A stretch of 64,000 nucleotides of DNA. Source: Bacillales bacterium (lineage in GTDB: Bacteria > Bacillota_I > Bacilli_A > RF39 > UBA660). Position 1 is the first letter of the stretch. The number at the start of each line of letters is the position of its first letter. The notes under the pieces are model-generated. The model ran no database searches. It was given only the letters and a program-made list of their open reading frames with translations, and was not told where the DNA came from. Shown here one piece after another: positions 8,597 through 58,577 of the stretch. Where the stretch lies: positions 29,535 to 93,534 of the forward strand of contig JAEEZR010000010.1 in NCBI GenBank assembly GCA_016292035.1, read 5' to 3'. The position numbers were made by a program, and so were the translations under genes.

Positions 8597-10630
8597 TTAT
8601 CTTGTAGCTAATTTATAGCATTTGCTTCCATCAGCATTATATTTAGTCCATCCACTTGGACAAGTGTATACTGTTTCTTGGCCATCTGGACAATAAGCAG
8701 TTCCTGTTCTATACACTGGTGCACATGCTCCTGCTTCACTAGCTCCATATGTAATTGTACATGAGTATGACTGAGCTACTGTATAATAATCTCCTTGATA
8801 TATATAACCTATATATCCAATGTATGCATTATAGTTGGAAGCCATTTGATTATAGTATGTTTCAAATGCAGATAATGTTTTAGTTGATTGAGAGCAGCTT
8901 CCTCCGTTAACACTACAAACTGTATAATATACTAATCCATTAGAGCTAGACATGTATTGAACATTTTGGCTTGCTGTTTCATATTCTGATGTTCCTGTGA
9001 TTTTACTATATTTAGTTCCAGGACTTGTTTTCCATGTTCTAACGTTTTGAGCACATCCCCATACTCCGTTTGGACAGTTACCTAAATTACTAATTAATAC
9101 TCCGCTTTGGTTAGTTAATGCTGGTTTACTATATTGATGATAATTATAGTTTGCATCGCATCCCCATAGTGTGTAAGCATCATATTTACATCTTATATTA
9201 CCATTTTTACATGAAGCATAACTTGATGCATTTGTTACACATACATATCCTCCTGAAGAAGAACCCAAACTTGAATCAAGTGTTAGTGTTCCTGAAGCAC
9301 ATTTCCATGCTTGTGGCGCTACTATAGTACATGTTCTAGCACTTGTTACATTTGATGCTGTTAGTGTGCTTCCAGATAAACTACATCCAGTTCCTGATAC
9401 CGTTGCACCTGTTAATGTGTAGTTAGCTAATGCACTAATAGTAAATGTTCCACTGCTACCATATTCAACTTGTTTACTAGTTGGATTACTTGAACAATTT
9501 GTGCATGTTACTGATACTGTGAATTTTTGTTTTGGAAGTGTTACTATACATGATTTGTTTTCTTTTACATTAGATATTGATAGAACTGATGCATTTAATG
9601 AGCATCCTCCAGTTACTGTTGCACCTGTTAGGGTATATCCAGTTTTTGGTGATATAGTAAAGCTTGTTTCTTCTGCATGTTCTACTTGCTGTGTTGCTGG
9701 TGTACTTGTACAGTTATTACATGTTACTCCAACACTATATACCTTCTTCTTTAAATTTATTTCACATACTGAAGCGGCTGTTACATTTTCAATATAAACT
9801 ATTCCATCTACTAGTGAGCATCCACTTCCTGATACTGTTGCTCCTTCTAAAGTATAGCCTTCACCTGGCACTATTGGGAAAGAAGCACTAGCTCCTATTT
9901 CTATTTTTTGATTTGTACTAGAACCACTACATGTATCACAAGCTATTGTTACAGTATATTTTTGTTTAGCCAATTTAACATTACATGTATTAGTTCCTTT
10001 AGCATTATGGTAAGTTAATATATTTCCTTCTAAAGTACATCCTCCAGTTACTGTGGCATCCTCAACAGAATATGTTTCATCTGGTGTTATTGTAAATAAT
10101 GCATTAGCTCCTTTAGCAACTATTACTGTAGAGTTATCTACATTACCATTTTCTACTGTTACAGATACTTTAGCACTTTCATTTGTACTAAAACAGACAC
10201 ATGATCCAGTAGAACAGTCTACTGTTCCTTTTGCTATATCATCACCGGATATATCTGTAGTAAGTGAAGCCATATCTTCATTTGAGTAACAATACTTTTC
10301 GTTAGATAGTGATAAGCTTTTTACATGTCCTGTATCATCAAGCTCAACTAAATAGTTAAATTCTGTAGTATGAATATCTAGCTTACTACATCCTAGTGAG
10401 CCAAAAGATTCATCACAGTATAAAGAACTAGATTTAGAATGAAGAGCATCTGCTTGATACTTTTTTTCTGCTTCTTTCTTTATAGATTCTACTTGTATTG
10501 CAAAAGATTTTTTTCTAGATACCTCGTATGAATTTAATACTTTAGGTATTATTAAAAGCATCAATAATCCAATAAGAGCTATTACTGCTAAAAGCTCGAT
10601 TAATGTAAACCCTCTGTTTTTTCTTTTCAT
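8597..10630 (-). CDS. Modular type IV pilin-like protein P1 (677 aa): prepilin leader, a 140-aa Cys-containing head, 4 InlB-B-repeat-like modules, and a 237-aa Cys/Tyr/Gly-rich C-terminal domain.
   Basis: MKRKNRG/FTLIELLAVIALIGLLMLL is a class III signal with Gly-1, Phe+1 and Glu+5. The start is trimmed to the ATG at 10630 because the track's 26-aa extension lies over the promoter. Repeats described under the repeat feature at 9311-10168. Confidence 0.85.
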   Translation of the reverse strand: MKRKNRGFTLIELLAVIALIGLLMLLIIPKVLNSYEVSRKKSFAIQVESIKKEAEKKYQADALHSKSSSLYCDESFGSLGCSKLDIHTTEFNYLVELDDTGHVKSLSLSNEKYCYSNEDMASLTTDISGDDIAKGTVDCSTGSCVCFSTNESAKVSVTVENGNVDNSTVIVAKGANALFTITPDETYSVEDATVTGGCTLEGNILTYHNAKGTNTCNVKLAKQKYTVTIACDTCSGSSTNQKIEIGASASFPIVPGEGYTLEGATVSGSGCSLVDGIVYIENVTAASVCEINLKKKVYSVGVTCNNCTSTPATQQVEHAEETSFTISPKTGYTLTGATVTGGCSLNASVLSISNVKENKSCIVTLPKQKFTVSVTCTNCSSNPTSKQVEYGSSGTFTISALANYTLTGATVSGTGCSLSGSTLTASNVTSARTCTIVAPQAWKCASGTLTLDSSLGSSSGGYVCVTNASSYASCKNGNIRCKYDAYTLWGCDANYNYHQYSKPALTNQSGVLISNLGNCPNGVWGCAQNVRTWKTSPGTKYSKITGTSEYETASQNVQYMSSSNGLVYYTVCSVNGGSCSQSTKTLSAFETYYNQMASNYNAYIGYIGYIYQGDYYTVAQSYSCTITYGASEAGACAPVYRTGTAYCPDGQETVYTCPSGWTKYNADGSKCYKLATR
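9311..10168 (-). repeat. Four tandem coding repeats of about 70-73 aa inside P1
   Basis: Recurring pattern (Y/F)TV(T/S)VxC(T/N)NC ... F(T/P)I ... GYTL(E/T)GATV(T/S)G(G/S)GC(S/T)L ... NVT...C. Confidence 0.85.
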
Positions 10631-10693: not shown

Positions 10694-10723
10694 AATAAAA
10701 AATAGCATATTTTGTATGCTATT
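10694..10723 (-). terminator. Intrinsic terminator after lepA
   Basis: Stem aatagcata/tatgctatt with a 5-nt loop, followed by TTTTATT on the minus strand. It overlaps the lepA TAG stop. Confidence 0.7.
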
Positions 10724-12503: not shown

Positions 12504-12540
12504 AAAGATCTCTCCCATGTAAGAGATTATATCAAAGTTT

Positions 12541-43524: not shown

Positions 43525-43553
43525 ATAATACACTATAATCTATTATATGTCAA
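43525..43553 (-). promoter_or_regulatory. Promoter of the infC-rpmI-rplT operon
   Basis: On the minus strand, TTGACA (overlapping the pbp TGA stop), a 17-nt spacer, then TATTAT. Confidence 0.55.
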
Positions 43554-45700: not shown

Positions 45701-45704
45701 ATTA

Positions 45705-46001
45705 TTACTCCTCTGTTGAAACTCTTCTTATATTACTATTATTATACCCCAAACCATAAGTTGTTGCAACAGCTTCAACATTGTCTAAAGATGCTAGTTC
45801 ATTAATTTTCATTTCTAAACTTGCATTAATATTTTCTTGTTTAGCAATTTTTTCTTTTATGCTTTCTACTTCAAAATTGGTTTTTGAAATAAAAGCCATA
45901 GATAAAGAACCACCGAAAATATTTCCGATTATTAAAACACCTATTAAGAAACGTAATGTTCTTTCACCTCTAAATAAGTTTTTCTTTCTGTTCTTTATCA
46001 T
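45705..46001 (-). CDS. ftsL: Cell division protein FtsL
   Basis: 98 aa bitopic protein with a TM helix and a coiled coil, located between rsmH and pbp. Confidence 0.75.
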   Translation of the reverse strand: MIKNRKKNLFRGERTLRFLIGVLIIGNIFGGSLSMAFISKTNFEVESIKEKIAKQENINASLEMKINELASLDNVEAVATTYGLGYNNSNIRRVSTEE

Positions 46002-46014
46002 ATTCTTTCTCCTT

Positions 46015-46917
46015 TTATATTTTTTCTATTATTCTTAGTTTTGCACTTCTACTTCTATTATTGTCTTCTAGTTCTTTATCAGTAGCCACTAATGGCTTTC
46101 TTGTTATATTTATAGCTTTTGCTTTCATATCATCTGGCACTACTGGTAGTTTCTTTGAAAGCGGATTATCGCTTGTTAATTCTTTAAAAACCTCTTTTAC
46201 TATTCTATCTTCCAAACTATGAAAAGAAATAATACATAGTCTTCCATGAGGAGCCAATAAATCAAATGCATCTTTAATGGAACTTTCTAAAATTCGAAGT
46301 TCATCATTAACTTCTATTCTTATTGCTTGAAATGTTTTCCTACAAGGATTTTCTTTTCTTCTATAACTTTCTGGGACATTATTCTTAATTATCTCAGCAA
46401 GTTCTAGTGTAGTGTTAATTGGTCTATTATTTACAATAGCTTTAGCAATTGATTTAGCATTTGCTTCTTCCCCATAGCAATATAGTAAATTGATTAAATC
46501 GTTAAGTGAATATTCATTTACTACTTCTTTGGCACTTAACTTTTGCCTTCTATCCATTCTCATGTCTAGAGGTGCGTCTTTATGAAAACTAAAACCCCTT
46601 GAAATTTCGTCAAGTTGTGGAGAGCTAACCCCTAGATCGAATAGTATTCCATCTACTGGTTCTTTAATATACTCTTTCATATTCTTAAAATTTGTATGAA
46701 AGATTTTAAAGTTATTACCTATCTTACTTAGTTTTTCACTGCTATAAGTAACTGCTTCCTCATCTTGATCAAAGGCGAATAGGAACCCCTCAGTTTCTAA
46801 TCTCTTCAAAATTTCCCCTGAATGGCCAGCATAGCCAAGTGTTGCATCGATATATTTGCCACTAGCCTTAATGTTTAATCCTTCAATTGATTCATCTAAT
46901 AATACACTCTTATGCAT
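46015..46917 (-). CDS. rsmH: 16S rRNA (cytosine1402-N4)-methyltransferase
   Basis: HKSVLLDESI..., DATLGYAGHS, FDLGVSSPQLD motifs. The ATG at 46917 has a GGAGGAG RBS, so the track's start at 46962 is less likely. Confidence 0.93.
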   Translation of the reverse strand: MHKSVLLDESIEGLNIKASGKYIDATLGYAGHSGEILKRLETEGFLFAFDQDEEAVTYSSEKLSKIGNNFKIFHTNFKNMKEYIKEPVDGILFDLGVSSPQLDEISRGFSFHKDAPLDMRMDRRQKLSAKEVVNEYSLNDLINLLYCYGEEANAKSIAKAIVNNRPINTTLELAEIIKNNVPESYRRKENPCRKTFQAIRIEVNDELRILESSIKDAFDLLAPHGRLCIISFHSLEDRIVKEVFKELTSDNPLSKKLPVVPDDMKAKAINITRKPLVATDKELEDNNRSRSAKLRIIEKI

Positions 46918-47347
46918 TTTCTCCTCCAGTAAATAAATTTTCTGCAATGTCTGCAAAGGCATCTAGATTACTCTCCATGAAAGTATTAAACGCATCCTCA
47001 GCCCATACTTCTATGTGTTCGTTTACGCCAATTATAACGCAGTTCTTTGTTAAATTGGCGTAACGAACGAGTGGTGAGGTAATATTAATTCGACCTTGCT
47101 TATCGAATTCGCTAGTGGATGCTCCGCCTAAGAAAAATCTATTGAAGTTTCTGACGTCGCCTTTAGTAAATGGAAGAGAAGCAAGTTTGTTAGTAATCTT
47201 CTCCCATTCAGATTTTGAATAAATGAATAAACATTTATCTAGACCACGAGTAACGATAATTTCGTCGCCCAAATCATATCTGAATTTAGAAGGAATAATT
47301 AATCTGCCTTTTTCATCAATACTGTGATGATATTCTCCCATTAGCAT
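46910..47347 (-). CDS. mraZ: Transcriptional regulator MraZ
   Basis: Two SpoVT/AbrB-like repeats with DEKGRLIIPSKFR and DKQGRINI motifs. First gene of the dcw cluster. Confidence 0.93.
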   Translation of the reverse strand: MLMGEYHHSIDEKGRLIIPSKFRYDLGDEIIVTRGLDKCLFIYSKSEWEKITNKLASLPFTKGDVRNFNRFFLGGASTSEFDKQGRINITSPLVRYANLTKNCVIIGVNEHIEVWAEDAFNTFMESNLDAFADIAENLFTGGENA

Positions 47348-47531: not shown

Positions 47532-50500
47532 TTAGCATGAACAACTAATGGATGAAGGCAATCCTGGCCCTTTAGGACAAGTACTTGCACTACTATTGCA
47601 GTAGTTCTTTAGACAATTTGTATCTGTTCCAACACATTTATAATAGTTAGATACACCTTTTGTTCCTCCGTTACAAGTCCAGCTTCCGCTTGCTGCTCCG
47701 CTTCCTGTATTAGTATATTTGACTGAGCATCCTTTAATTGTACCGGTTGTTCCATTACATTCATAAGAAGCTGTCCAATACCATTTGTTACCAGATCCTG
47801 AGTATGCTGTCCTTGTGACTGTACAGGAACTTTTTACTGCTTTTACTGTACAAGTAACATTATTAGTAACATTTCTAACTGTCAGTGTACTTCCTGATAG
47901 AGAACATCCTGTTCCTGTTACTGTTGATCCAGATAATTTATAATTATTAGATGCAGTAAGTGTAAAAGTAGCATTTGATGAGTGATTGATTAATGCACTA
48001 GATGGATTTGACGAACATCCTGTACATGAAACTGATACTGTGTATTGTTTAATTGGAATATTAACGTTGCAGCTTACATTACTTGTAACATTGCTTGCTG
48101 TTACTGTGCTTCCAGAGATTGTACAACCTCCAGTTACTGTAGCTTTTGATATATCATAGTTTTCGTTTGCTGTTATAGTAAATGATGCATTAGAGCCATA
48201 TTCTACTATTTGTGAATTACTTGAAGTAGTGCCGTTTGTTACTGATAAGTTAACGGTATACTTAAGTTTGTTCATTGAAGCTACACACGATCTATCTTTT
48301 CCGACATTATACGCTGTTATTTTTCCATTTTCGGCTTTGCATCCACTTGATGTTGTTGTTAGAGTGTTAATATCATATCCAGTTGATGCTGTAACTGTTG
48401 ATACAGTTGTTTCTCCTGGAGCCACTTCAACATAGCTAGGAGCTGCACTTCCGTGATCAACTATAAATCTTATTTCATATGCAAGTGGTGATAAAGTTAC
48501 GGTGCATGTTTGATTGTTATAAGCATTCTCTATTGATAAGGCATTTCCTTTTAGTTTACATCCTTCTCCACTTACTGTAGAATGTCTGATCATGTATCCT
48601 TCTTTAGGATTAATTGTTAATACTTTATCAGAATGTTTTTCTACTTCAAATGATACTTCTGATTCTTTACAGTTTTCACATATAACATTTACTTTGACAT
48701 TTTCATATGGAAGTATTCTATATGGATTATCTACTGTTCCGTCAGCATCATTAGTTAGAACATCATTATTTAATGATATTACCGGTCTTATAGCATAGTT
48801 TTTATCAACTGTCATTGCTTGGAATGAACCATATGTTCCGCTTCTTCCATTTACTTCATAAATATATCCTACTGCTTTTGCAGTTGAACTAGTAGTTGAT
48901 GCTATTTTAGCTGGTGACATTGTCCACCATCTTTGGTTACCCATGATTGATGAACCAATACTATTTAAATAATACCATGCTTTTGAGTTCCCTTTTCCAG
49001 AACTTCCTCCTGCAAATACTATCTCATCTATAGTCATTAGGGCTATTGGATATTTAAGTGATTCATTTCCGTTTTTAGTGCTATATCTATCTGATAATTC
49101 TTCACATGCATATGATGGCTCATCTATTTTATAAGCTCTCTTATAAGCATTAGTATATACAGTTGTTTTTATTTTACCATTGTCTTTTATTGTATATGTT
49201 CCATTATATATTGATGAATCACCACAGTAGATAGCATTCCTATTTATATAGTTAGAATATCTTACTAGATTTCTACTATAATAGTTATCTATCATAAGTT
49301 TTACATCTGAATCATATATATTAGTTCTTAACTCATCTAGATCACTATAAGAACTTCCATACATATATCTAATAGCACTTGGATATATTTTATCGTTAAA
49401 GTTACTAGATGCTATTGAAGCATTTGTAGTTGAAGGATTTGGTCCTACATAAAGAAGTCTTACACCATTTCCTTCATTATTAGAGTTGGTTCTAATTATT
49501 CTCCAATATAGTTCTTTTCCTTCATTATTTTTACCGAATATTACCCAGTTATTTGTTACATTTCCTCTATAAAAATATACTCTTGATTTATCTTGTGTAT
49601 CAGTTGTGTAGTATATTTCTCCTGTGTTATTATTTTTGTCTACTTTATTATAGTCTATGCTTGCTGCTGATATGCTTTTATTATCATCTAATATCTTTTC
49701 AGATAATACATGACTTTTTGTTTTTGCAATTACTGTGCATGTAGTATCTTCCACTACATTTTTTACTGTAAGTTCATTATTTTCATTTAAAATGCAGTTT
49801 GTTTCATTAGATGAAGTAACGTCTGCATTTCTTAAAGTAAATCCACTAGTTGCTGTTATTGCAAATGTAGCATTGCTTCCTTCATATACACTTTTTTGTC
49901 CGAAGTTACTAGTGCAGTTTGAACATAAAACTGTTACTGTATGTTTTGGCTTTGGTTCTGGTGGTATTTTAGGTAGTGATATATTGTAAGATACATTTTT
50001 AGTTACGTGTACTTTCAGTATATCTTCTTCAAGTAAACATCCTCCACCATTATAGTAAGCTCCTTGTGTTGTGTAACCTTCTTCTGGAATTAAAGTATAA
50101 GTTAAATCTTGACCATATGCTTGATCGCTTTCTGTTATTGTGCTTGGATTTGCTCCTGTTATATTTACATTTACTGAAAAGAATTCTTGATTTAAAGTGA
50201 CTTTGCATCTACCATTTTTAGTTATATATGCACTTACAAGATTACCACTTACTGTGCATCCTTCATATCCTTCAGTAGTGGCACCTTCTAGTATATATCC
50301 TTCTTTTGGTTCTATTATTCTATTAACTTCTTGACCATATTCTACTTCAAATAGTGATTCAAATCCCGCCTGTGCTTCATCAGAAGTGAAATAAAAATAA
50401 TATTTCTCTTTATCCAGTTTTATATTACATACTGTATTTTTTTCTATATTAGTTGCTAATACTTTTAAGTTGTTTTCTTCATCTATATATAATTTACAGT

Positions 50501-51335
50501 GATTGTTTTCTTCTTCTAGTGGTTCATCTTCTTCTAACTCTTCTTCTTCGTCATCTACAAGTAGTTTAAGAGCGTTGATAGTATACTTTCTTGTATTAAG
50601 AGCTAGAGGCTTGCTCTTATTTCTTGATTCTAATTCTTCTTCACTTATAACTTCAGCAGAATCTATATCATATCCGTCTTCTGGAGTTAATGTAAATGTT
50701 TCTGAACCACCTACATGTACATATTTAGCTTCAGCATCAGGTGTTGCGCCTTCAACATTTAGTGTTACTATTCTTTTATTTTCTTCATATTCTGTTTTAT
50801 CTAGGAAACATGTTACATGAGTTTTAATTATTTTTCCTTGATCTATGTTTTGTTCAGTTCCTGTTTCTTTGAATATTATATTATATTTTACTTCATGGAT
50901 TTGTCCTTTAGAGATTATATTTTTTTCAGGCTCTAGTGTTCCTTTTGAAAGGATTATTTCTTCGCCTGGGGTACTAGGAACTGGTGTTTCTGATAAAAGA
51001 TTTCCATCTGTTCCATCAATTGTTTGAACATATACATTATTAGTGTAACTGTTTTCTTCCATTGTTAGAGTGCATGTATAGTCTACTGCTACATCAGAGT
51101 CACTTATAAAATAAACTCTAGTTGATCCTTCGCCTTTCCATCCAGGGAAAACATTTTCAGATGCTTCAGGAGAAGATACTACATATTCTACTTTTCCTAG
51201 TCTAGCTGTCTGTACAGTGCTGCTTGATGATTCTCCTCCATAGTTAAAAACAAAGTAAGCTAACGCTGTACTTGTTACTAACATAATTAGCGATAAAAAG
51301 ATAATTACTGATAAAACCATTGATTTCTTCTTCAT
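47532..51335 (-). CDS. Giant secreted or anchored repeat protein (1267 aa). Layout: N-terminal hydrophobic signal (not a prepilin), unique domain, 4 InlB-B-repeat-like modules, a 335-aa globular insert, 4 more modules, and a Cys-rich cap ending SCSC.
   Basis: The ORF is intact. The N-terminus is MKKKSMVLSVIIFLSLIMLVTSTALAYFVF. The modules are homologous to those of pilins P1 and P5. There is no LPXTG motif. Confidence 0.85.
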   Translation of the reverse strand: MKKKSMVLSVIIFLSLIMLVTSTALAYFVFNYGGESSSSTVQTARLGKVEYVVSSPEASENVFPGWKGEGSTRVYFISDSDVAVDYTCTLTMEENSYTNNVYVQTIDGTDGNLLSETPVPSTPGEEIILSKGTLEPEKNIISKGQIHEVKYNIIFKETGTEQNIDQGKIIKTHVTCFLDKTEYEENKRIVTLNVEGATPDAEAKYVHVGGSETFTLTPEDGYDIDSAEVISEEELESRNKSKPLALNTRKYTINALKLLVDDEEEELEEDEPLEEENNHCKLYIDEENNLKVLATNIEKNTVCNIKLDKEKYYFYFTSDEAQAGFESLFEVEYGQEVNRIIEPKEGYILEGATTEGYEGCTVSGNLVSAYITKNGRCKVTLNQEFFSVNVNITGANPSTITESDQAYGQDLTYTLIPEEGYTTQGAYYNGGGCLLEEDILKVHVTKNVSYNISLPKIPPEPKPKHTVTVLCSNCTSNFGQKSVYEGSNATFAITATSGFTLRNADVTSSNETNCILNENNELTVKNVVEDTTCTVIAKTKSHVLSEKILDDNKSISAASIDYNKVDKNNNTGEIYYTTDTQDKSRVYFYRGNVTNNWVIFGKNNEGKELYWRIIRTNSNNEGNGVRLLYVGPNPSTTNASIASSNFNDKIYPSAIRYMYGSSYSDLDELRTNIYDSDVKLMIDNYYSRNLVRYSNYINRNAIYCGDSSIYNGTYTIKDNGKIKTTVYTNAYKRAYKIDEPSYACEELSDRYSTKNGNESLKYPIALMTIDEIVFAGGSSGKGNSKAWYYLNSIGSSIMGNQRWWTMSPAKIASTTSSTAKAVGYIYEVNGRSGTYGSFQAMTVDKNYAIRPVISLNNDVLTNDADGTVDNPYRILPYENVKVNVICENCKESEVSFEVEKHSDKVLTINPKEGYMIRHSTVSGEGCKLKGNALSIENAYNNQTCTVTLSPLAYEIRFIVDHGSAAPSYVEVAPGETTVSTVTASTGYDINTLTTTSSGCKAENGKITAYNVGKDRSCVASMNKLKYTVNLSVTNGTTSSNSQIVEYGSNASFTITANENYDISKATVTGGCTISGSTVTASNVTSNVSCNVNIPIKQYTVSVSCTGCSSNPSSALINHSSNATFTLTASNNYKLSGSTVTGTGCSLSGSTLTVRNVTNNVTCTVKAVKSSCTVTRTAYSGSGNKWYWTASYECNGTTGTIKGCSVKYTNTGSGAASGSWTCNGGTKGVSNYYKCVGTDTNCLKNYCNSSASTCPKGPGLPSSISCSC
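47832..48704 (-). repeat. C-terminal block of four tandem modules of about 72 aa in the 1267-aa protein
   Basis: aa 878-1168, for example YTVSVSCTGCSSNPSSALINHSSNATFTLTASNNYKLSGSTVTGTGCSLSGSTLTVRNVTNNVTCTV. Confidence 0.85.
49722..50774 (-). repeat. N-terminal block of four more divergent modules in the 1267-aa protein (the first is interrupted by an acidic insertion)
   Basis: aa 188-538. Acidic insert DDEEEELEEDEPLEEE at aa ~260-276. The fourth module has the full CxNC...C...C pattern. Confidence 0.7.
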
Positions 51336-51404: not shown

Positions 51405-51430
51405 ATAAAAAGTACCTTTTAAGGTACTTT
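51405..51430 (-). terminator. Intrinsic terminator after pilin gene P5
   Basis: Stem aaagtacc/ggtacttt with a 6-nt loop. It overlaps the TAA stop and is followed by TTTTTATT on the minus strand. Confidence 0.65.
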
Positions 51431-53030
51431 AATTACAACTACAATTATATCCTGAAGAACTTACATTTATACCAGCAACACTTGTGCTTGATAAACTTGT
51501 ATTACAATATGAACGTATATTTCTTCTAGTTGTGCTTGTACACATTCTGTTAGGATTTGAGCTTCCGTAACTTCCACCATTACACTGAGTACTTCCATAG
51601 AAGCAGTTTACAATGCTACCAGTTTTTCCGCCGGTGCATGTGAATGACCCATAAAATCCTGATGTTGGTTTAGTTGTTGTACAATTAGAACTTGAAGAAC
51701 AATAAACTGTGCAGCTAGATGATTTAGCAGTTACAGCACATGTTTTATTAGATGTTACATTAGACGCTGTTAAAGTGCTTCCTGAAAGAGTACATCCTCC
51801 TGTTACTGTTGCTCCTTCTAAAGAATAACCACTTGATGCTGTCAGTGTAAATGTAGCATTTGTATTATAATCAACTGTTTGACTAGAAGTATTTAAAGTA
51901 CATCCTGTACATGTAGCTGAAACTGTAAATTGTTGTTTAGGCGCTGTTACGGCGCATGTAGTAGCAGCTGTTACATTGTTTAAACTTACTGTACTTCCTG
52001 AAAGTGTGCATCCTCCTGTTACTGTTGCACCTGTTAGGGTATATCCTGTATTTGCAGCGATAGTAAATGATGTATTAGTAAATGCCTCAACATTTTTTTC
52101 TTCACTTGCTGGTGTACAGTTAGTACATGTTAGCTTAATTTTATATGATTGTACTCCTAGAGATACTCTACATGTAGTATCTGCTAATACATTTGTTACT
52201 GATACTTTACCATTTTCTAGTGTGCATCCATCTGACACTGTGGCATTGTTTAGATTATATCCAGTATTAGCTGATATATTAAAGTATACATTTGATCCAG
52301 CCATAACGGTTCTTGTACTTGTAGCTGGTGTACAATTAGTACATACTAAATCTACTTTATAGCTTGCTACTGGAAGTGTTATAGTGCATGCTTTATTTGA
52401 AGTAACATTTGATGCTTTTAGAATATTATCTTCTAGTGTGCATTCTCCTTCAACAGTTGCATCTTCTAGTGTATATCCAACATTAGGAGTGATTACAAAT
52501 AGTGCATCCGTTCCTTTATCTACTAGTGCATAAGGCATATCACTTTTACCATTGTTAACTGTAACTGATACTTTCTTTTTACCTTCTATTACAACACAGC
52601 TGCAGCTCTCTCCTGTACATTCTACTGCACCATTTTTAATGTCACTCGTATTTATATCGAATTCTTTAGTTGTGTCTACATCTTTTATATAGCATAAGCT
52701 TCCATCAGATACTGTTAGATGTGATACTTTACCACGTTCATTTAATTCTATTTTATATTTCTTATCGGTTTTTAAAAGATCTAATGATGTACATCCTAGG
52801 CTTGATAGAGATTCATCACAGTATACTCTTCCCGTCGCTCCAGTTAGTCCATCAGCCATGTATTTCTTTTCAGCTTCTTTTTTTATTGATTCAATTTCAA
52901 TTTTAAATGCATCTTTTTTTGCTGCTCCAAACATGTTTACTACCTTAGGATAAATAAGTAGCATAAGTACTGCTACTACTCCTAGTACGGCTAAAATTTC
53001 GACCAAAGTAAAACCTTTTTTATTTTTCAT
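51429..53030 (-). CDS. Modular type IV pilin-like protein P5 (533 aa): prepilin leader, head, 4 InlB-B-repeat-like modules, and a 96-aa Cys-rich cap ending NCSCN.
   Basis: MKNKKG/FTLVEILAVLGVVAVLMLL. The head aligns with P1 (ESIKKEAEKKY..YCDES..LGC). The repeats are at aa 154-437. Confidence 0.88.
   Translation of the reverse strand: MKNKKGFTLVEILAVLGVVAVLMLLIYPKVVNMFGAAKKDAFKIEIESIKKEAEKKYMADGLTGATGRVYCDESLSSLGCTSLDLLKTDKKYKIELNERGKVSHLTVSDGSLCYIKDVDTTKEFDINTSDIKNGAVECTGESCSCVVIEGKKKVSVTVNNGKSDMPYALVDKGTDALFVITPNVGYTLEDATVEGECTLEDNILKASNVTSNKACTITLPVASYKVDLVCTNCTPATSTRTVMAGSNVYFNISANTGYNLNNATVSDGCTLENGKVSVTNVLADTTCRVSLGVQSYKIKLTCTNCTPASEEKNVEAFTNTSFTIAANTGYTLTGATVTGGCTLSGSTVSLNNVTAATTCAVTAPKQQFTVSATCTGCTLNTSSQTVDYNTNATFTLTASSGYSLEGATVTGGCTLSGSTLTASNVTSNKTCAVTAKSSSCTVYCSSSSNCTTTKPTSGFYGSFTCTGGKTGSIVNCFYGSTQCNGGSYGSSNPNRMCTSTTRRNIRSYCNTSLSSTSVAGINVSSSGYNCSCN
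51720..52571 (-). repeat. Four tandem coding repeats of about 71 aa inside P5
   Basis: Same consensus as the P1 repeats. A 41-nt stretch (52009-52049) matches P1 (9603-9643) at 39 of 41 positions. Confidence 0.85.
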
Positions 53031-53057: not shown

Positions 53058-53086
53058 ATTATATATAATTATATATTATTTTTCAA
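53058..53086 (-). promoter_or_regulatory. Promoter of pilin gene P5
   Basis: On the minus strand, TTGAAA, a 17-nt spacer, then TATAAT. Confidence 0.55.
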
Positions 53087-53088
53087 CA

Positions 53089-53114
53089 TTAAAAAGAAGC
53101 ACAATGCGCTTCTT
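53089..53114 (-). terminator. Intrinsic terminator after the prepilin peptidase gene
   Basis: Stem aagaagc(g)c/g(a)gcttctt with a short loop, followed by TTTTT on the minus strand. Confidence 0.55.
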
Positions 53115-53860
53115 TAAAATACATAACCCATACTGGATAATATATATATTATTATGCATGATAATAATAGGAACGGTCCGAATGGAATTAGATTTTCATT
53201 ATATTTTTCATCGAGTAAGAAGTAAGCTATTAAAGCTAGAACGCTAGCTACAAATAATGAAAGAAGTCCATTAAATGTTCCAAGAGCAAGTCCTATAGGA
53301 AGCATTAATTTTACATCTCCTCCTCCAAGGCTTTCTCTTTTAAATACTTTATCTCCTACTATTTTTACTAATAACATAATTACAAATAATACTACCATTC
53401 CAACTATTTTTAATTTGTAGTCATTAAATGAACTAAATGATATATATGTTATTAGTATTAATAGAGTTGATCCAAATACTACTCTATCTGATACGTAATA
53501 ATATTTAAAGTCACTTACTGCAGTTACTGAACATGCACTTATTAATATTAGTGGCACTATTATATCCGCAGTTAATCCATAATACAAATAACTACACATA
53601 AATGTTATACCAGTAAATAATTCTACTATTAAGCTACTTATATCTATATGCGCTTTACAATATGAGCATTTACCTTTTAGGCATATATAAGATATTACTG
53701 GAATGTTCATATACCATTTAAGTGGTTTTAAGCAGTTATCGCATCTACTTCCTGGTTTTATTATACTTATATTATTTGGTATTCTATATCCTATGCAAGC
53801 ATAGAAACTTCCAAGAAGTAAACCAAGCACTAAAAATGCTCCCCCATAAAATACTGTCAT
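53114..53860 (-). CDS. Prepilin peptidase (A24 family, PilD/ComC type)
   Basis: N-terminal Cys pairs CDNC...CSYC, polytopic membrane protein, catalytic Asp contexts AVSDFKYY and GGGDVKLM. Confidence 0.88.
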   Translation of the reverse strand: MTVFYGGAFLVLGLLLGSFYACIGYRIPNNISIIKPGSRCDNCLKPLKWYMNIPVISYICLKGKCSYCKAHIDISSLIVELFTGITFMCSYLYYGLTADIIVPLILISACSVTAVSDFKYYYVSDRVVFGSTLLILITYISFSSFNDYKLKIVGMVVLFVIMLLVKIVGDKVFKRESLGGGDVKLMLPIGLALGTFNGLLSLFVASVLALIAYFLLDEKYNENLIPFGPFLLLSCIIIYILSSMGYVF

Positions 53861-53870
53861 TATATTCCTC

Positions 53871-55748
53871 CTATTTAAGTATTTCTGAACTTACGTTGTA
53901 CATTGGAACTAATACTGATATCATTATACCACCTACTACTACTGCTAGGAATACTAGTAGTATAGGTTCTACCATTGTTTTTAGAGTATTTGCTAAAGAA
54001 CGTTGTTCTCTTTGATAGTACTCACTTATTTTTTCAAGCATGCTAGCAAGTTGTCCAGTTTGTTCACCTGTTGATATCATATAATATGCAAGTTCTGGTA
54101 TAGCCCAGCTTTCCTTAAATGATAATGACATTTTTTCACCTCTTAATAGGTTTGAAATTGTATCATACATTATCATTTTATAGAATTCATTATTAGTTAT
54201 TTTACTTAAGATATCAATTGTATCTGTAAGTAATACATTGTTTTTATTAAGTACTGCGAATGTTTTCGCAAATAAGTTCATTTCATTATAGATAACTATG
54301 TTACCTACTACTGGTATATGCATGTATGCATATTGAACTACTGTTCTAAATGCTTTTACTTTCTTATATAGTATTGAGAATACCAATATAATAGCTAATA
54401 TAGCTACAAATAATATACCAACATTATTTCTTAAGAAGTCTGATAGTTTTAATAAGAATAATGTTATACCTGTCATTTCTGCATTCATTGAATCATATAC
54501 TTTTTTGAATTGAGGTACTATGTATACAACCATGAATGTTATAACAGTTACTGCAAATATAAGTACTATAGATGGATAAGTTAATGCACTTATCATTTGT
54601 TTTCTTGTAACTTCTTTTTCTTGATAATAATTTGACATATCATCTAGAGTTCCTTCTAGATCACCTATTAATTCAGCTGCTTTTATCATGTTAATTAAAA
54701 GAGCTGGGAACACTTTGTTTTGTTTTTCTAATGCAGATGAGAAGTTTTCACCTACAGATAATTCATATATTAATGAAGAATATACCTTTTTATATTTTCT
54801 TCTATTATCTTGTTTAGCTAATATTTTAATAGCGTCTATTAATGGAATACCAGCTTTCAAATATGTGGATAATTGTGTTAACCAGAATACTAAGTCTTTA
54901 TTCTTCATTTGTTCATTCATGTGTGATTTCTCACCATGTATGAAATTTATCCACCAGTTAGTAGTTATTTCATATACTTCATATCCTTCATCAATTAAGA
55001 ATGAGTGTACATCTAGTCTAGATAAAGATGGGAAGTATCCTGTTATTAATTTGCCTTCTTTATTTCTTGCTAAATATCTATATACTTGTTTCTTTTCAGT
55101 TCTTTCAGCATCTTTACCAAATTTATCAATAAATAATACTTCAAGTTCTCTTTCTTTTTTATTTTTATAGTATTTAACTAATGATATATTATTCCATTTG
55201 TTTACAAAGTAATTAGATATAGACTTAGGTGCATTTTTAGTTGCATATGTTGTCTTTTCTCTAATCATTTTAATTCTTTTAGCAGATTTATCTACAAATC
55301 CACTAAGTGAACTATATATAAATATAGGGAAAGAATAGAATATTACTTTTAATACTTTAAATGAACCTCTTCCGATTGCCTTTAGTAGTAAATATAGCTC
55401 AGTTACTATTGGTTTAAGAGAATATTTGTATACAGCTTTGCCTACTATTCCTACATATTTAGCAATAAACTTAGATGCATACATTATTGCTACAAAAATA
55501 TAACTAAATACAGTAAAAATATTAGTGACTAAAAAGTCAAATGCTTTAAATAAACCTACTGATGTGTATGATAGTGTTTTTATTATTTCGCCAAATAATC
55601 CTACTACTATTTTTTTTATTAATAAAAATATACTTTTAAAAAAGTCTACAAAGAATTTAACTATAGGATTCATATTCCTATTAGTAGAGACGGAACTATT
55701 CTTTTTTTTCTTGGTTTGCTTTGGTTTTGCTTTTTTATATGTTTTCAC
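53871..55748 (-). CDS. Type IV filament platform protein (GspF/PilC/ComGB family) with a 220-aa N-terminal extension
   Basis: GTG start with GGAGG 8 nt upstream. The canonical N-domain begins at YRYLARNKEGKLITG (aa ~223). There are two T2SSF repeats (LSTYLKAGIPLIDAIKILAKQ and FAVLNKNNVLLTDTIDILSKI) and 3 core TM helices. Confidence 0.88.
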   Translation of the reverse strand: MKTYKKAKPKQTKKKKNSSVSTNRNMNPIVKFFVDFFKSIFLLIKKIVVGLFGEIIKTLSYTSVGLFKAFDFLVTNIFTVFSYIFVAIMYASKFIAKYVGIVGKAVYKYSLKPIVTELYLLLKAIGRGSFKVLKVIFYSFPIFIYSSLSGFVDKSAKRIKMIREKTTYATKNAPKSISNYFVNKWNNISLVKYYKNKKERELEVLFIDKFGKDAERTEKKQVYRYLARNKEGKLITGYFPSLSRLDVHSFLIDEGYEVYEITTNWWINFIHGEKSHMNEQMKNKDLVFWLTQLSTYLKAGIPLIDAIKILAKQDNRRKYKKVYSSLIYELSVGENFSSALEKQNKVFPALLINMIKAAELIGDLEGTLDDMSNYYQEKEVTRKQMISALTYPSIVLIFAVTVITFMVVYIVPQFKKVYDSMNAEMTGITLFLLKLSDFLRNNVGILFVAILAIILVFSILYKKVKAFRTVVQYAYMHIPVVGNIVIYNEMNLFAKTFAVLNKNNVLLTDTIDILSKITNNEFYKMIMYDTISNLLRGEKMSLSFKESWAIPELAYYMISTGEQTGQLASMLEKISEYYQREQRSLANTLKTMVEPILLVFLAVVVGGIMISVLVPMYNVSSEILK

Positions 55749-55823: not shown

Positions 55824-55856
55824 AAAAGAAAAGAACTTTACTTTCGTAAAGTTCTT
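55824..55856 (-). terminator. Intrinsic terminator after the 601-aa gene
   Basis: 11-bp stem aagaactttac/gtaaagttctt with a 4-nt loop, followed by a T-rich run on the minus strand. Confidence 0.7.
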
Positions 55857-55864: not shown

Positions 55865-57670
55865 TTATTCTTCACTTTTGATAAAGTCTACGCTTGTTGT
55901 GTCAATTACGTTTCCTTGTTCATCTTTTAAGATTAAATCTACTTCGTAATATCCATCTTTGTCTGCATCAACTACTACTTCATCTAATTGTGAGAAACTA
56001 TTAGCATCTTTAAGTTCAACTGGAGCACCATTAACATCATCAATTACTTCACCGTTGTATTTAATAGTTACTGTTGAGCCTTCTGCTTTTTCTTTAACTA
56101 CTGCAGTTATTGTTCCATTAAATGTAACATTTTCTCCTGCACCATAAGTATTTTCATATGTTTCAACAAATCTATCTGTTGATTCTTGTTCTTCAAGATT
56201 AATGTACTCATAATATGATGATATGTCTTCAATTGTTGGTGAATCTACTGAACAGTAATCATATCCGCATCTTTCGTAGTATACAGTGTATTCATCTAAT
56301 TCAGTATCATCTGTTAATACGTAGTTGTTAGAATATTGATCAATAACTATTTCTGTTGGATATGTAGGTGTTTCTTCATATACTTCCATAGCATAATCTG
56401 TTGTTTTAACTGTTTTTCCTTCTTCATCTTTTAGAGTAAATGTAAGTAAGTAATTTCCTTCTTTACTTGCAGTCATGTCATTAGAATATTCTATATTACT
56501 TGAAGAAACATTTACTGTATATAGTAAACCTTGTGCAGTTTCTGAGAAAGTGTCTACTCCATTTTCATTATTCCATGAAAGTGTTCCAGCTCCTTCATAA
56601 GTTACATACATTTTATAATCTTTGCTTTCATCCAATTCACTACTTGAAACTGATACTGAGAATGGTGCTTCTACAGCTTTTATACGTTCAGATGTTCCAT
56701 CACTTAATTCAATGAATGTATACTTACTGTTATCTTTGTCTAGATATATAAGTTGTGTTCCTGAAGCGTATGGATTATCAACTTTTGCAGTATCTTCTCC
56801 TAAATCAATGTTATTGTTAGATGGATCAACAATTATTGAAGGGCTTCCTTCTATTTCGTTATTATTTATAACACTTGCATTGTTTGTAGTTGATACTTCA
56901 CTTGAGCTTCCACTGATTCTTGCTCTTGAATCACTATATTCATTTTGATTTGTAATGTTTATGTTATCATTAACAACAACTTTAGAATCGTTGATAGTTA
57001 ATGCATAATAAGAAGCATCTACATCCATTTTTCCAATAGTAACATCAGTTGAATCTACTATTTGTATTGCCACTCTATCTTCATAGCTTCTTCTTTCAGT
57101 TATATTAACATTTAAATTTGTTAGTGATACTTTTTGATTAGTATTAATTTTAATACCATATGATTTAATTAGTTGTTTTGAGAAGTTTATTGTTTTTCCT
57201 TTTCCATCAATTGTTACTTCTCTATCAATTAAAATTGGTTTTGATAAACCTGTTAAGTCATTTTGTAATTCTAGTGTAGTAGCGGCATTTTCAGTTTGTG
57301 CTAGAGTCAATACTAATTCTTCATAAGAAGATATTTCGTCTTTTGTTATTACATTACCATTATCATCTCTAGTTACACCAAATAATGTCTCACTTACTAC
57401 AGTTCCATCTGCTTTTACCCATTTACCAGTTTCAGTATTATATTTAACTATTGATGCTGGGTTAATTGATGGTGGTAATAATTCAGCAGTAATCCTATTT
57501 ACATATATTCTATCTGCAGCTATATAAATGTTGTCGATTTCTGCTCTATTATTTACTGTTGTAGTAGCCATTGTTTTAGCTTCACTTTGTGTTATAATAG
57601 TTGCTTTTGCATTAGTAAGTGGCACTAATAATAGAATTGTAAATAGTATCCCATATATTATTTTTTTCAT
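55865..57670 (-). CDS. Secreted protein (601 aa), possibly a beta-helix region plus acidic Ig-like C-terminal domains
   Basis: Sec signal MKKIIYGILFTILLLVPLTNAKA. VTIDGKGKTINF and short repeated V/I-x-V-x-N rungs suggest a parallel beta-helix. No anchor motif. The fold call is tentative. Confidence 0.7.
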   Translation of the reverse strand: MKKIIYGILFTILLLVPLTNAKATIITQSEAKTMATTTVNNRAEIDNIYIAADRIYVNRITAELLPPSINPASIVKYNTETGKWVKADGTVVSETLFGVTRDDNGNVITKDEISSYEELVLTLAQTENAATTLELQNDLTGLSKPILIDREVTIDGKGKTINFSKQLIKSYGIKINTNQKVSLTNLNVNITERRSYEDRVAIQIVDSTDVTIGKMDVDASYYALTINDSKVVVNDNINITNQNEYSDSRARISGSSSEVSTTNNASVINNNEIEGSPSIIVDPSNNNIDLGEDTAKVDNPYASGTQLIYLDKDNSKYTFIELSDGTSERIKAVEAPFSVSVSSSELDESKDYKMYVTYEGAGTLSWNNENGVDTFSETAQGLLYTVNVSSSNIEYSNDMTASKEGNYLLTFTLKDEEGKTVKTTDYAMEVYEETPTYPTEIVIDQYSNNYVLTDDTELDEYTVYYERCGYDYCSVDSPTIEDISSYYEYINLEEQESTDRFVETYENTYGAGENVTFNGTITAVVKEKAEGSTVTIKYNGEVIDDVNGAPVELKDANSFSQLDEVVVDADKDGYYEVDLILKDEQGNVIDTTSVDFIKSEE

Positions 57671-57689: not shown

Positions 57690-58577
57690 TTATCCTATAA
57701 TTGCTTTTTTAACATTATAAGTTGTATTGTTTAGTTTTATTTTTGCTACTGAGTTAATTTGATCTTTATCAACTATTATAGCTTTTATACTTTCATCATA
57801 TCTTCCAAGATATTTGTCAGCGGCATTATATACTGCATATACTTCTTTAGCTTGTGCTTCAGTTAATTCTGTGTCATTCTTTATAAGTATTATCTTGTAA
57901 GAAATATCAAGTCCATCTACAGCCTCATATCTGTATTTATAATCATCTAGTACAGTTATTGTTACTGTAGCCATTTTACCAGAGTCGCTACTTTTAACAG
58001 TTATAACAGCTTTACCTGGCTTAACAGCAGTTACTGTACCTTTAGCATCAACTTTTGCAACTGCTTCATTATCTGATGAGTAAGTTAATCCAGTGTTTAG
58101 TACGCCACTAGGATATACGCTTGCACCTATTTCATAAGTACTGCCTATTTCTAGATTAACACTTGTTGCTTTAACATTTACTTTAGTTACAGTTAGTTTA
58201 TAGCAAGAGCAACTTTCTGTATTTAAAGCATATCCTTTATCACAAGTTAGTGTGCAAACACTTGCTACCGGTTCAGTGGGTTTTTCTTCTTTACTAGGTT
58301 CTTTTTTATTCCATTTTGCAACTAAAACCATATCTTCAGTAACTTCTAGATCAAAGTCATATTTTTCTCCATCTAGTTCCCATCTTGCAAAAGAATATCC
58401 TTCTTTAGTTGGATCTTCAGGCTTAGTAACTTTTCCTCCTTTTTCTACATTTTGGCTTTGTACTTTAGTACCACCATTACTATCAAATTCTACTAAGTAT
58501 TCTTTCTTAGAACAACTACATGCAGTTAAGACAGTAAGTGCAAATACTAAAAGCACTGCTATTTTTAGTTTTTTCAT
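57690..58577 (-). CDS. Lipoprotein with a Listeria-Bacteroides (Flg_new) repeat, a CxC Cys-cluster and a Big_2-like Ig domain
   Basis: Lipobox LTAC. YLVEFDSNGGTKV...PTKEGYSFARWELDGEKYDF...MVLVAKW is the classic Flg_new repeat. CTLTCDKGYALNTESCSC cluster. ...AVAKVDAKGTVTAVKPGKAVITVKS is Big_2-like. Confidence 0.8.
   Translation of the reverse strand: MKKLKIAVLLVFALTVLTACSCSKKEYLVEFDSNGGTKVQSQNVEKGGKVTKPEDPTKEGYSFARWELDGEKYDFDLEVTEDMVLVAKWNKKEPSKEEKPTEPVASVCTLTCDKGYALNTESCSCYKLTVTKVNVKATSVNLEIGSTYEIGASVYPSGVLNTGLTYSSDNEAVAKVDAKGTVTAVKPGKAVITVKSSDSGKMATVTITVLDDYKYRYEAVDGLDISYKIILIKNDTELTEAQAKEVYAVYNAADKYLGRYDESIKAIIVDKDQINSVAKIKLNNTTYNVKKAIIG

What the first reader, a model, noticed from the sequence alone, without database searches (positions are those of the whole stretch)
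51429..53030. Bead-on-a-string pilin: prepilin head fused to four Cys-bracketed Ig-like modules and a Cys-rich cap
Seen in the sequence: P5 (533 aa) and P1 (8597-10630) share one architecture. It starts with a class III signal peptide, followed by a head of about 140 aa with conserved Cys (YCDES..LGC...C(Y)...C..G.C.C). Next come four tandem modules of about 71 aa, most with four positionally conserved Cys (CTNC at the start, GGC mid-module, TC at the end). A Cys-rich C-terminal cap ends the protein. I count about 30 Cys in P5. The module consensus (TVxV...G...V..G....FTI....GYTL.GATVTGGC.L.G..L...NVT...TC.V) resembles the divergent InlB B-repeat family (Pfam Flg_new_2, from memory). Established knowledge: modular pilins with one extra adhesive domain are known in Streptococcus sanguinis. 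I am not aware of pilins carrying a four-module array plus a cap. Inference: if it is polymerised or placed at the tip, each subunit would project a disulfide-stapled stalk tens of nm long, which suggests an adhesin or spacer. The heavy Cys content implies an extracytoplasmic oxidative folding pathway, and none is encoded in this window.
Basis: partly seen in the sequence, partly recalled or inferred. Interest (0 to 1): 0.75.

Follow-up and report, generated by a model that had tools for sequence, protein, structure and literature searches.

The report
Long-stalked modular type IV pilin
A low-GC gut-type bacterium encodes a type IV pilin whose ordinary pilin head carries a rod of four small beta-grasp repeats tipped by a rare ten-cysteine domain, most likely an adhesin shown on a pilus; it is a new variant of the already catalogued "modular pilin" design, not a new kind of system.

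Summary
Window 51429-53030 (-) encodes a 533-aa protein with exactly 30 Cys. It has a class III signal peptide (MKNKKG|FTLVE), a 6-Cys head of about 150 aa, four 72-aa repeats and a 96-aa, 10-Cys C-terminal domain. The head is a true type IV pilin module. It passes the N_methyl and TIGR02532 cut-offs, and Gly-1, Phe+1, Glu+5 and Pro+22 are invariant in 20 homologues. A head profile matches solved pilins, and the prepilin peptidase and PilC genes lie immediately upstream. The repeats are not Ig-like. They are remote, disulfide-stapled relatives of the InlB B-repeat / Flg_new_2 helix-less beta-grasp domain, and Pfam's model misses them. The cap is a conserved but very rare domain: 12 clusters among 1.84 billion representatives. 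It is always C-terminal, ends in Y-x-C-S-C, and occurs on both pilins and non-pilin secreted proteins, including the neighbouring 1267-aa protein. P1 shares the head and repeats but has a different terminal domain. Multi-repeat modular pilins, including pilin-IPR044060 and pilin-IPR013378 arrays, were already catalogued by Raynaud et al. 2021, so the novelty claim is overstated. Best reading: a PilD-processed minor or tip pilin that projects an adhesive knob about 15-20 nm. No assembly ATPase or thiol oxidoreductase is visible in the window.

The parts
53013..53030 (-). Leader peptide MKNKKG of the class III signal, with predicted cleavage after Gly6
   Evidence: N_methyl and TIGR02532 are above their cut-offs. 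Gly-1, Phe+1 and Glu+5 are invariant in 20 homologues.
52572..53012 (-). Pilin module (residues 7-153): alpha1 helix followed by a small beta-sheet, with 6 conserved Cys
   Evidence: AF2 predicts a helix at 9-62 followed by strands, pLDDT 80-93. The head profile A7 matches Thermus PilA4 (6xxd_A) over profile positions 7-117 at E 5.6e-9, plus about 18 other pilins. The 156-aa stand-alone pilin P0021 has the same six Cys.
52356..52571 (-). Repeat 1 (residues 154-225), with 2 Cys and no CxxC
   Evidence: Repeat HMM; AF2 pLDDT above 90 and all-beta.
52140..52355 (-). Repeat 2 (residues 226-297), with 4 Cys
51924..52139 (-). Repeat 3 (residues 298-369), with 4 Cys
51720..51923 (-). Repeat 4 (residues 370-437), with 4 Cys
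51432..51719 (-). C-terminal 10-Cys cap domain (residues 438-533), ending in YNCSCN
   Evidence: Only 12 clusters among 1.84e9 representatives carry it, always at the C-terminus. Ten Cys columns are conserved. AF2 could not model it, pLDDT about 30. No Pfam hit.
53058..53086 (-). Promoter-like site TTGAAA-17-TATAAT upstream of P5
   Evidence: Consensus scan, 11 of 12 matches. Weak evidence in AT-rich DNA.
51409..51430 (-). Terminator-like hairpin directly after the P5 stop codon; a second one at 53093-53115 follows pilD
   Evidence: 8 terminator-like sites found against 2.9 +/- 2.0 in shuffles. Sequence read.
53114..53860 (-). Prepilin peptidase (PilD-like)
   Evidence: A24_N_bact E 1.5e-28 and Peptidase_A24 E 9e-15. 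The same gene lies upstream of the orthologue P0002 in L081.
53871..55748 (-). PilC/GspF-type platform protein with an N-terminal extension of about 220 aa
   Evidence: T2SSF E 5.6e-49. GspF/PilC models align to residues 217-623.
47532..51335 (-). 1267-aa secreted protein with about 8 of the same repeats, an unknown central domain and a divergent copy of the cap (about 47535-47831)
   Evidence: Repeat HMM. Cap HMM E 4.9e-19. BLASTP of the two caps E 6e-5. An orthologous gene start follows the pilin in L081.
8597..10630 (-). P1: paralogous pilin with the same head and four repeats but a different 236-aa, 14-Cys tail

Best explanation
P5 is a modular type IV pilin. The adjacent PilD-type peptidase cuts after Gly6 (inferred). 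The hydrophobic alpha1 helix lets the 150-aa head enter a type IV filament built on the adjacent PilC platform, driven by an ATPase encoded elsewhere (inferred).

The C-terminal 380 residues form a semi-rigid rod of four helix-less beta-grasp (InlB B-repeat-like) beads. Each bead is stapled by a C3-C4 disulfide, and beads 2-4 also carry a CxxC pair. The rod ends in a compact ten-cysteine knob.

A rod of this bulk fits best at the filament tip or as a sparse minor subunit. I therefore read P5 as a minor pilin that holds an adhesive or ligand-binding knob about 15-20 nm from the pilus. The repeats act as a length-adjustable spacer: relatives have 2, 4 or 6 copies.

The same knob and repeats are also mounted on signal-peptide proteins, including the next gene. 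This fits a model in which effector modules are swapped between carriers.
For: Shown:
- Class III signal peptide above curated cut-offs.
- Gly-1, Phe+1, Glu+5 and Pro+22 invariant in 20 homologues.
- Head profile hits about 19 solved pilins or pseudopilins, one across alpha1 plus the globular part.
- AF2 predicts a long N-terminal helix followed by a beta-sheet.
- The order pilD, then pilin, then giant protein is conserved in a second organism (L081). A related set of genes sits around P0035 (L082).
- Repeats are modelled at pLDDT above 90 and are all-beta.
- Foldseek of the four-repeat model hits the MucBP/Mub rod YwfG (E 2e-6), the InlB B-repeat (prob 0.87) and ubiquitin-like arrays.
- hhalign against Flg_new_2 repeats gives 93.5%.
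- Across 40 repeats, C1 and C2 are both present (23) or both absent (17), never one alone. C3 and C4 are both present in 35 of 40.
- Repeat number varies: 2 in P0035, 4 in P5, 6 in P0002.
- The cap is conserved with 10 Cys on six pilin clusters and at least four non-pilin secreted proteins.

From the literature: modular pilins act as tip-exposed adhesins in S. sanguinis (PMC8179133).
Against: - No PilB-type ATPase, PilM/N/O or small major pilin is in the 64-kb window, so assembly into a filament is unproven.
- Foldseek with the head plus repeat 1 model found no significant match and no type IV pilin.
- The cap could not be modelled (pLDDT about 30), so its fold and function are unknown.
The disulfide pairing rests on presence/absence patterns only.
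- No thiol oxidoreductase was seen, and the organism is probably an anaerobe. Oxidative folding is assumed, not shown.
- Adhesion is inferred by analogy. No ligand is indicated.
Confidence: 0.6

Rival explanations
1. Membrane-anchored display without polymerisation. The prepilin N-terminus serves only as a PilD-processed membrane anchor. The rod of beta-grasp beads spans the Gram-positive wall and places the cap at the cell surface.
For: - No assembly ATPase or major pilin is in the window.
- All five prepilin genes here are large, 312-677 aa.
- In this lineage such genes are scattered singly among housekeeping genes (L083, L084).
- A rod of 15-25 nm is about the thickness of a monoderm wall (inference).
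- The same rod and cap also occur on ordinary signal-peptide proteins.
Against: - Glu+5 and Pro+22, which matter for filament assembly, are invariant.
- A PilC platform gene is kept next to pilD, both here and in L030.
- Small stand-alone pilins with the same head exist in relatives (P0021, 156 aa), which suggests a filament for these heads to join.
Confidence: 0.17
2. Major subunit of a 'bottle-brush' filament. Every subunit of the pilus carries the stalk, giving a thick, bristled fibre.
For: - No small major pilin is seen in the window.
- P5 has its own promoter-like site and is flanked by terminator-like hairpins, which is compatible with strong independent expression.
- Geometry does not strictly forbid radial rods (inference).
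Against: - Five different large pilins share the head, which suits interchangeable minor subunits.
- A fibre roughly 40 nm wide could hardly cross peptidoglycan (inference).
- Characterised modular pilins are low-abundance subunits (PMC8179133).
- P5 and its orthologues are singletons among about 15 billion sequences, unlike typical abundant major pilins.
Confidence: 0.08
3. Part of a pseudopilus or secretion device of the T2SS or Com type. P5 would be a pseudopilin that helps export or dock the neighbouring 1267-aa cap-bearing protein rather than acting as an adhesin itself.
For: - The order pilD, pilin, giant protein is conserved.
- The cap is shared between P5 and the 1267-aa protein, which could mean cap-cap docking.
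- The N-terminus also scores with GspG and ComGC models, below their cut-offs.
Against: - The 1267-aa protein has its own signal peptide.
- PilC scores better with the GspF and PilC models than with ComGB, and all are below the equivalog cut-offs.
- P5 and the 1267-aa gene appear to be separate transcription units.
- There is no evidence for any cap-cap interaction.
Confidence: 0.07

Closest known systems
Modular minor pilins PilB (vWA module) and PilC (lectin module) of Streptococcus sanguinis (Raynaud et al. 2021, PMC8179133; Shahin et al. 2023, PMC9934059)
   Same: A monoderm type IV pilin with a canonical class III signal peptide and a small pilin module. An extra C-terminal effector is grafted on by a short linker. 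The expected role is a tip-exposed adhesin.
   Different: P5 carries four spacer repeats plus a terminal domain rather than one globular module. The effector is an uncharacterised 10-Cys domain. There are 30 Cys. No experimental data exist.
Catalogued pilin architectures IPR012902-IPR044060 (x1-3) and IPR012902-IPR013378 (x1-5) in Dataset S1 of Raynaud et al. 2021. That these InterPro entries correspond to Flg_new_2 and Flg_new is from my memory.
   Same: A pilin head followed by tandem InlB-B-repeat-type domains. P0020 and P0033 found here are examples.
   Different: The P5 repeats fall below Pfam detection, so P5 would not appear in that catalogue. They are Cys-stapled and followed by the 10-Cys cap. 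The catalogued proteins were only counted, not studied.
InlB B-repeat / Flg_new_2 (PF18998) domain
   Same: About 70 aa, all-beta, helix-less beta-grasp, tandem arrays in surface proteins, and a shared motif pattern (G..F.I.P..GY ... NVT). hhalign gives 93.5%. Foldseek matches 9qr4, 7pv9 and 7nms.
   Different: The Pfam HMM does not hit. P5 has an added conserved C3-C4 pair and a CxxC pair. Alignment to Flg_new_2 covers 47 of 73 columns.
CofB of ETEC type IVb pili
   Same: A large minor pilin with a pilin module, then a beta-repeat domain, then a terminal beta-sandwich. It is thought to sit at the tip and dock a partner (as summarised in PMC8179133).
   Different: No sequence relationship was detected. 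CofB belongs to the type IVb class and forms a trimeric tip. P5 has a short type IVa-like leader.
MucBP/Mub-repeat rods of Gram-positive adhesins (e.g. YwfG, PDB 7yl4; PMC9815576)
   Same: Head-to-tail beta-grasp beads form an elongated stalk that presents a binding domain. This was the best Foldseek match (E 2e-6).
   Different: These rods are anchored by LPXTG/sortase, not by a pilin. The binding domain is N-terminal. The sequence families differ and there is no Cys stapling.

Membership tests
Type IV pilin (class III signal peptide protein, IPR012902/PF07963) | Short hydrophilic leader ending in Gly-1, followed by Phe/Met+1 and Glu+5 | tested here: met
   The sequence is MKNKKG|FTLVE. N_methyl scores 29.3 bits (cut-off 21.2) and TIGR02532 scores 25.6 (cut-off 16.3). 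The motif is invariant in 20 homologues.
Type IV pilin (class III signal peptide protein, IPR012902/PF07963) | About 21 hydrophobic residues that begin a long alpha1 helix, packed on an antiparallel beta-sheet (lollipop fold) | tested here: inconclusive
   AF2 predicts a helix at 9-62 then 5-6 strands, pLDDT 80-93. The sequence profile aligns to Thermus PilA4 (6xxd_A) across positions 7-117 at E 5.6e-9. However, Foldseek of the head plus repeat 1 model found no pilin and nothing below E 0.06.
Type IV pilin (class III signal peptide protein, IPR012902/PF07963) | A cognate prepilin peptidase and assembly machinery (PilC platform, PilB ATPase) | tested here: inconclusive
   PilD (A24) and PilC (T2SSF) are adjacent. 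No T2SSE-type ATPase is in the 64-kb window. The rest of the genome is not available.
Type IV pilin (class III signal peptide protein, IPR012902/PF07963) | Actual cleavage, N-methylation and incorporation into a filament | not testable with these tools
   This needs proteomics or electron microscopy.
Modular pilin sensu Raynaud et al. 2021 | An N-terminal pilin module fused to one or more additional domains not specific to type IV pilus biology | tested here: met
   The head (1-153) is homologous to the stand-alone 156-aa pilin P0021. It is followed by four repeats and a cap that also occur on non-pilin proteins.
Flg_new_2 (PF18998, divergent InlB B-repeat) | Match to the Pfam HMM at or above the gathering score (23.6 bits) | tested here: not met
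   No hit for P5, P0002 or the single repeats, even at E<=10.
Flg_new_2 (PF18998, divergent InlB B-repeat) | Remote homology and the same helix-less beta-grasp fold | tested here: met
   hhalign of 14 repeats against Flg_new_2 repeats of P0014 and P0020 gives 93.5%, E 2.3e-7. phmmer hits P0014 at E 5.6e-12. Foldseek matches the InlB B-repeat with prob 0.87. DSSP shows no helix in the repeats, as described for the InlB B-repeat (PMC8900821).
   The top Foldseek neighbours are MucBP/Mub, InlB B-repeat, ubiquitin-like and sushi arrays. CnaB-type sortase pilins appear only at prob <=0.28.
Sushi/CCP domain | About 60 aa with four Cys paired 1-3 and 2-4, and a conserved Trp | tested here: not met
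   Foldseek lists CCP arrays (8cmt_C E 5.5e-6). But C1 and C2 are gained or lost together while C3 and C4 persist, which implies 1-2 and 3-4 pairing. There is no conserved Trp.
SipW-dependent / TasA-camelysin-like proteins (for the neighbouring 1267-aa protein and other non-pilin cap carriers) | Match to TIGR04088 or Peptidase_M73, or to the TasA structure | tested here: inconclusive
   There are only sub-threshold hits, and only in P0027: TIGR04088 at 15.2 bits (cut-off 19) and Peptidase_M73 at 15.5 bits (cut-off 22.5). The N-terminal profile A6 finds no TasA in the PDB. The resemblance of the ..YAYF.. motif is from memory.

The most novel reading that the evidence does not exclude
The ten-cysteine, C-terminal ...GSGY-x-CSC domain is a previously undescribed extracellular effector module. 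It would be a disulfide-rich adhesion or thiol-exchange 'warhead' that a small clade of low-GC gut Bacillota mounts interchangeably on two kinds of carrier, type IV pilins and signal-peptide (possibly TasA-like) surface proteins. Length-tunable, disulfide-stapled B-repeat or ephrin-receptor-like stalks hold it out. This would also imply a working extracytoplasmic oxidative-folding system in a probable anaerobe.
Probability: 0.2. Interest if true: 0.6.

Novelty: new variant of a known kind. Interest (0 to 1): 0.4.

Why it matters
Modular pilins are the current explanation for how simple type IV pili gain many functions. This locus adds three things to that picture.

- A case in which a spacer of variable repeat number (2, 4 or 6) and a terminal effector are clearly separate parts.
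- Effector parts that are shared with non-pilin carriers in the same gene cluster.
- Repeats and a cap that domain databases miss, which supports the published suspicion that modular pilins are under-counted.

The rare 10-Cys domain and the heavy use of cysteine in exported proteins of a low-GC gut bacterium give concrete targets for adhesion and disulfide-formation experiments. None of this overturns current understanding.

Tried and rejected
- Pfam, NCBIfam and PHROGs scans of P5, P1 and single repeats gave only the N-terminal pilin motif. There was no Flg_new_2 hit and no hit for the cap.
- phmmer of P5 against PDB sequences matched only the alpha1 region.
- The first genome-contig scan with P5 found nothing. 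The second, with alignment A1, returned 80 loci that match the head only. None contains the repeats or the cap (HMM searches).
- The metagenome scan found only the P0002 contig.
- The homologue search with the head alone scored only 89 candidates. The search with repeat profile A4 returned nothing, so that search was wasted.
- The look-up of encoding contigs could not locate P0001, so the rest of the source contig (100 kb) and the organism name were not obtained.
- Foldseek with the head plus repeat 1 model gave no significant match.
- AF2 did not fold the cap. Model coordinates are not exposed, so the requested Cys-Cys distance check could not be done. I replaced it with presence/absence covariation of Cys columns.
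- The TasA/SipW link for the 1267-aa protein was tested by profile against the PDB and by family scans. It was sub-threshold only.
- The central domain of the 1267-aa protein (alignment A8) matches nothing in the PDB or Pfam.
- The weak SRCR similarity of the cap (E 0.14) was rejected as not significant.
- The sushi/CCP reading was rejected on the Cys pairing pattern.
- The P1 tail was compared with other Cys-rich pilin tails and matches only its orthologue P0004.
Full report
**Observation.** The ORF at 51429-53030 on the minus strand encodes 533 aa. It contains exactly 30 Cys. That is 5.6% of residues, against 0.71% in 37 other minus-strand ORFs of this 28%-GC window; the binomial P is about 1e-17. 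An HMM built from the internal repeats recovers four copies with a strict 72-aa period: 154-225, 226-297, 298-369 and 370-437. It also finds four copies in P1 (8597-10630) and about eight in the next gene, a 1267-aa protein at 47532-51335. The P5 copies are 33-54% identical to one another. They leave no DNA-level tandem repeat, so the array is old. The described layout of head, four modules and a Cys-rich end is therefore real.

**The head is a type IV pilin module.**
- Residues 1-27 pass the Pfam N_methyl and NCBIfam TIGR02532 cut-offs.
- In an alignment of 20 homologues, Gly-1, Phe+1, Thr+2, Leu+3, Glu+5 and Pro+22 are invariant.
- AlphaFold2 predicts a helix at 9-62 followed by a small beta-sheet at pLDDT 80-93, in both the full-length model and a head plus repeat 1 model.
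- A profile of 13 heads hits about 19 solved pilins or pseudopilins. One is Thermus PilA4 (6xxd_A), aligned over profile positions 7-117 and chain residues 1-113 at E 5.6e-9.
- A 156-aa stand-alone pilin, P0021, shares 43% identity and all six head cysteines. The head is therefore a complete pilin in its own right.
- One test failed. Foldseek with the head plus repeat 1 model returned nothing significant and no pilin. Structural confirmation is therefore incomplete.

**The repeats.**
- They are modelled with pLDDT above 90 as all-beta units without a helix.
- With the four-repeat model, Foldseek's significant matches are the MucBP/Mub rod of YwfG (7yl4, E 2e-6), the B. anthracis TIE protein, CCP arrays and the InlB B-repeat (prob 0.87).
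- The InlB B-repeat is a beta-grasp fold that lacks the usual helix (PMC8900821). YwfG's Mbp and MubR units are beta-grasp beads joined head to tail into a rod (PMC9815576).
- Pfam's Flg_new_2 model does not detect the P5 repeats even at E<=10. However, phmmer links P5 to a protein with six Flg_new_2 repeats (P0014, E 5.6e-12). Profile-profile comparison of 14 window repeats with Flg_new_2 repeats gives 93.5% probability at E 2.3e-7.
The label 'Ig-like' is wrong.
- Among 40 repeats from this family, the first two Cys (CxxC) are either both present (23) or both absent (17), never one alone. The last two are both present in 35 of 40. This implies C1-C2 and C3-C4 pairing and argues against a sushi-type 1-3/2-4 pattern. 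I could not measure distances because model coordinates are not exposed.

**The cap.**
- Residues 438-533 were not foldable (pLDDT about 30) and match no Pfam family.
- A full HMMER scan of 1.84 billion representatives found only 12 clusters. In every one the match is at the extreme C-terminus.
- The alignment shows ten conserved Cys columns and a terminal G-S-G-Y-x-C-S-C, followed by 0-2 further residues.
- Six carriers are prepilins: P0001, P0002, P0029, P0032, P0033 and P0035.
- Four are signal-peptide proteins with a ..YAYF..-type N-terminus. Their similarity to SipW-type signals or camelysin is only sub-threshold.
- The 1267-aa neighbour carries a divergent copy (cap HMM E 4.9e-19; BLASTP E 6e-5).
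- Some carriers use ephrin-receptor-like Cys repeats as the stalk instead of B-repeat-like units.
- P1's 236-aa, 14-Cys tail is a different domain.

**Context.**
- On the minus strand the gene order is: lipoprotein with Flg_new and Big_2, a 601-aa Pectate_lyase_5-type adhesin, PilC (T2SSF), the prepilin peptidase, P5, the 1267-aa protein, then mraZ-rsmH-ftsL-pbp.
- P5 is flanked by terminator-like hairpins and has its own promoter-like site.
- In L081, the contig of the 54%-identical orthologue P0002 with six repeats, the order pilD, pilin, start of the giant protein is conserved.
- Around P0035 (same head, two repeats, same cap) lie a repeat-bearing 743-aa protein and homologues of the lipoprotein and the adhesin.
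- The window holds five prepilin genes, all large (312-677 aa) and all Cys-rich. It holds no small pilin, no T2SSE-type ATPase and no thioredoxin-like CxxC protein.

**Mechanism.** What is shown is a prepilin with a cognate peptidase and platform next door, carrying a confidently modelled rod of beta-grasp beads and a conserved Cys-rich terminal domain. What is inferred is:
- cleavage and methylation by PilD;
- entry of the head into a filament driven by an ATPase encoded elsewhere;
- a location at the tip or as a sparse minor subunit, because of the bulk of the rod;
- disulfide stapling of the beads;
- a role for the cap in ligand binding.

Four beads of about 3.5-4 nm plus a small knob give roughly 15-20 nm, which is less than 'tens of nm'. 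Rival readings are a non-polymerised membrane anchor whose rod spans the wall, a bottle-brush major pilin, and a pseudopilus that docks the neighbouring protein. They are listed with their tests.

**Comparison and novelty.** Raynaud et al. 2021 defined modular pilins and counted 1,219 of them in 264 architectures. These include IPR012902-IPR044060 x1-3, IPR012902-IPR013378 up to x5, IPR005046 (DUF285, as in P0007-type relatives found here) up to x9, and a 13-repeat case. They also noted that pilins whose modules lack database signatures are missed. P5 is such a case. It has the same design principle, with a divergent Cys-stapled B-repeat spacer and an undescribed, very rare terminal domain that is shared with non-pilin carriers. 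I therefore rate it a new variant of a known kind, of moderate interest. P5, P1 and their relatives are singletons or near-singletons in a collection of about 15 billion sequences.

**Limits.** The organism could not be named. The best head matches are in uncultured gut Bacilli, Erysipelotrichaceae and Mycoplasmatota MAGs. The rest of the genome is unavailable. There is no structure for the cap. The disulfide and adhesion claims are inferences.

Noticed in passing
window 8597-10630, 12581-13519, 29859-30797, 30811-31830, 51429-53030 (all minus strand): There are five prepilin genes in 64 kb. All are large (312-677 aa), all share nearly the same alpha1 and a 6-Cys head, and all are Cys-rich (10-34 Cys). 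No small major-pilin-like gene is present. The three proteins of about 312-339 aa share another unknown C-terminal module.
   Followed up: partly
window 47532-51335 (-): A 1267-aa secreted protein has a ..LAYFVF.. N-terminus, about eight of the same repeats and a divergent copy of the 10-Cys cap. It also has a conserved central domain of about 340 aa (motifs WRIIRTN, YP.ALMT.DE..FAGG, RPV.SL) that matches nothing in Pfam or the PDB. That central domain also occurs on a pilin (P0029).
   Followed up: partly
window 53871-55748 (-); L030 8201-10361: The PilC homologue has an N-terminal extension of about 220 aa that looks like it contains membrane segments. Here and in L030, pilC and pilD form a pair with no adjacent pilB-type ATPase.
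   Followed up: partly
window 55865-57670 and 57690-58577 (-); L082 4805-7585: A 601-aa Pectate_lyase_5-type putative adhesin and a lipoprotein with Flg_new and Big_2 lie upstream of pilC. Homologues of both (23% and 48% identity) sit beside the cap-bearing pilin P0035 in L082. This suggests a conserved adhesion gene neighbourhood.
   Followed up: partly
window 10719-12518 (lepA) and 43550-47347 (mraZ-rsmH-ftsL-pbp); L083 234-7389: Modular pilin genes sit directly beside lepA (P1) and the dcw cluster (P5 and the 1267-aa gene). In L083 a cap-bearing pilin (P0033) lies exactly between pbp2B and lepA. The same housekeeping junctions seem to be reused as insertion points.
   Followed up: no
L038 9998.., L061 12208.., L076 10001.., L045 3178-13300: Other uncultured gut Bacilli MAGs encode giant prepilins of 733-1240 aa with 30-33 Cys. 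Their tails carry repeated C-P-S-G-W-x-L-S-G-x-x-C hairpins, which also resemble the last 20 residues of P1. L045 has five tandem pilin genes, four of about 680-690 aa and one of 488 aa.
   Followed up: no
P0031, P0032, P0033 (proteins found with the cap): Eukaryote-type Ephrin_rec_like (PF07699) Cys-rich repeats score at or just below the gathering cut-off (23.0-25.7 bits against 23.1) on bacterial prepilins and secreted proteins. They serve as an alternative stalk beneath the same cap.
   Followed up: no
window 53093-53115, 51409-51430, 55831-55856: Terminator-like hairpins separate pilD, P5 and the 1267-aa gene, and the adhesin gene from pilC. The cluster therefore looks like several transcription units rather than one operon.
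   Followed up: no
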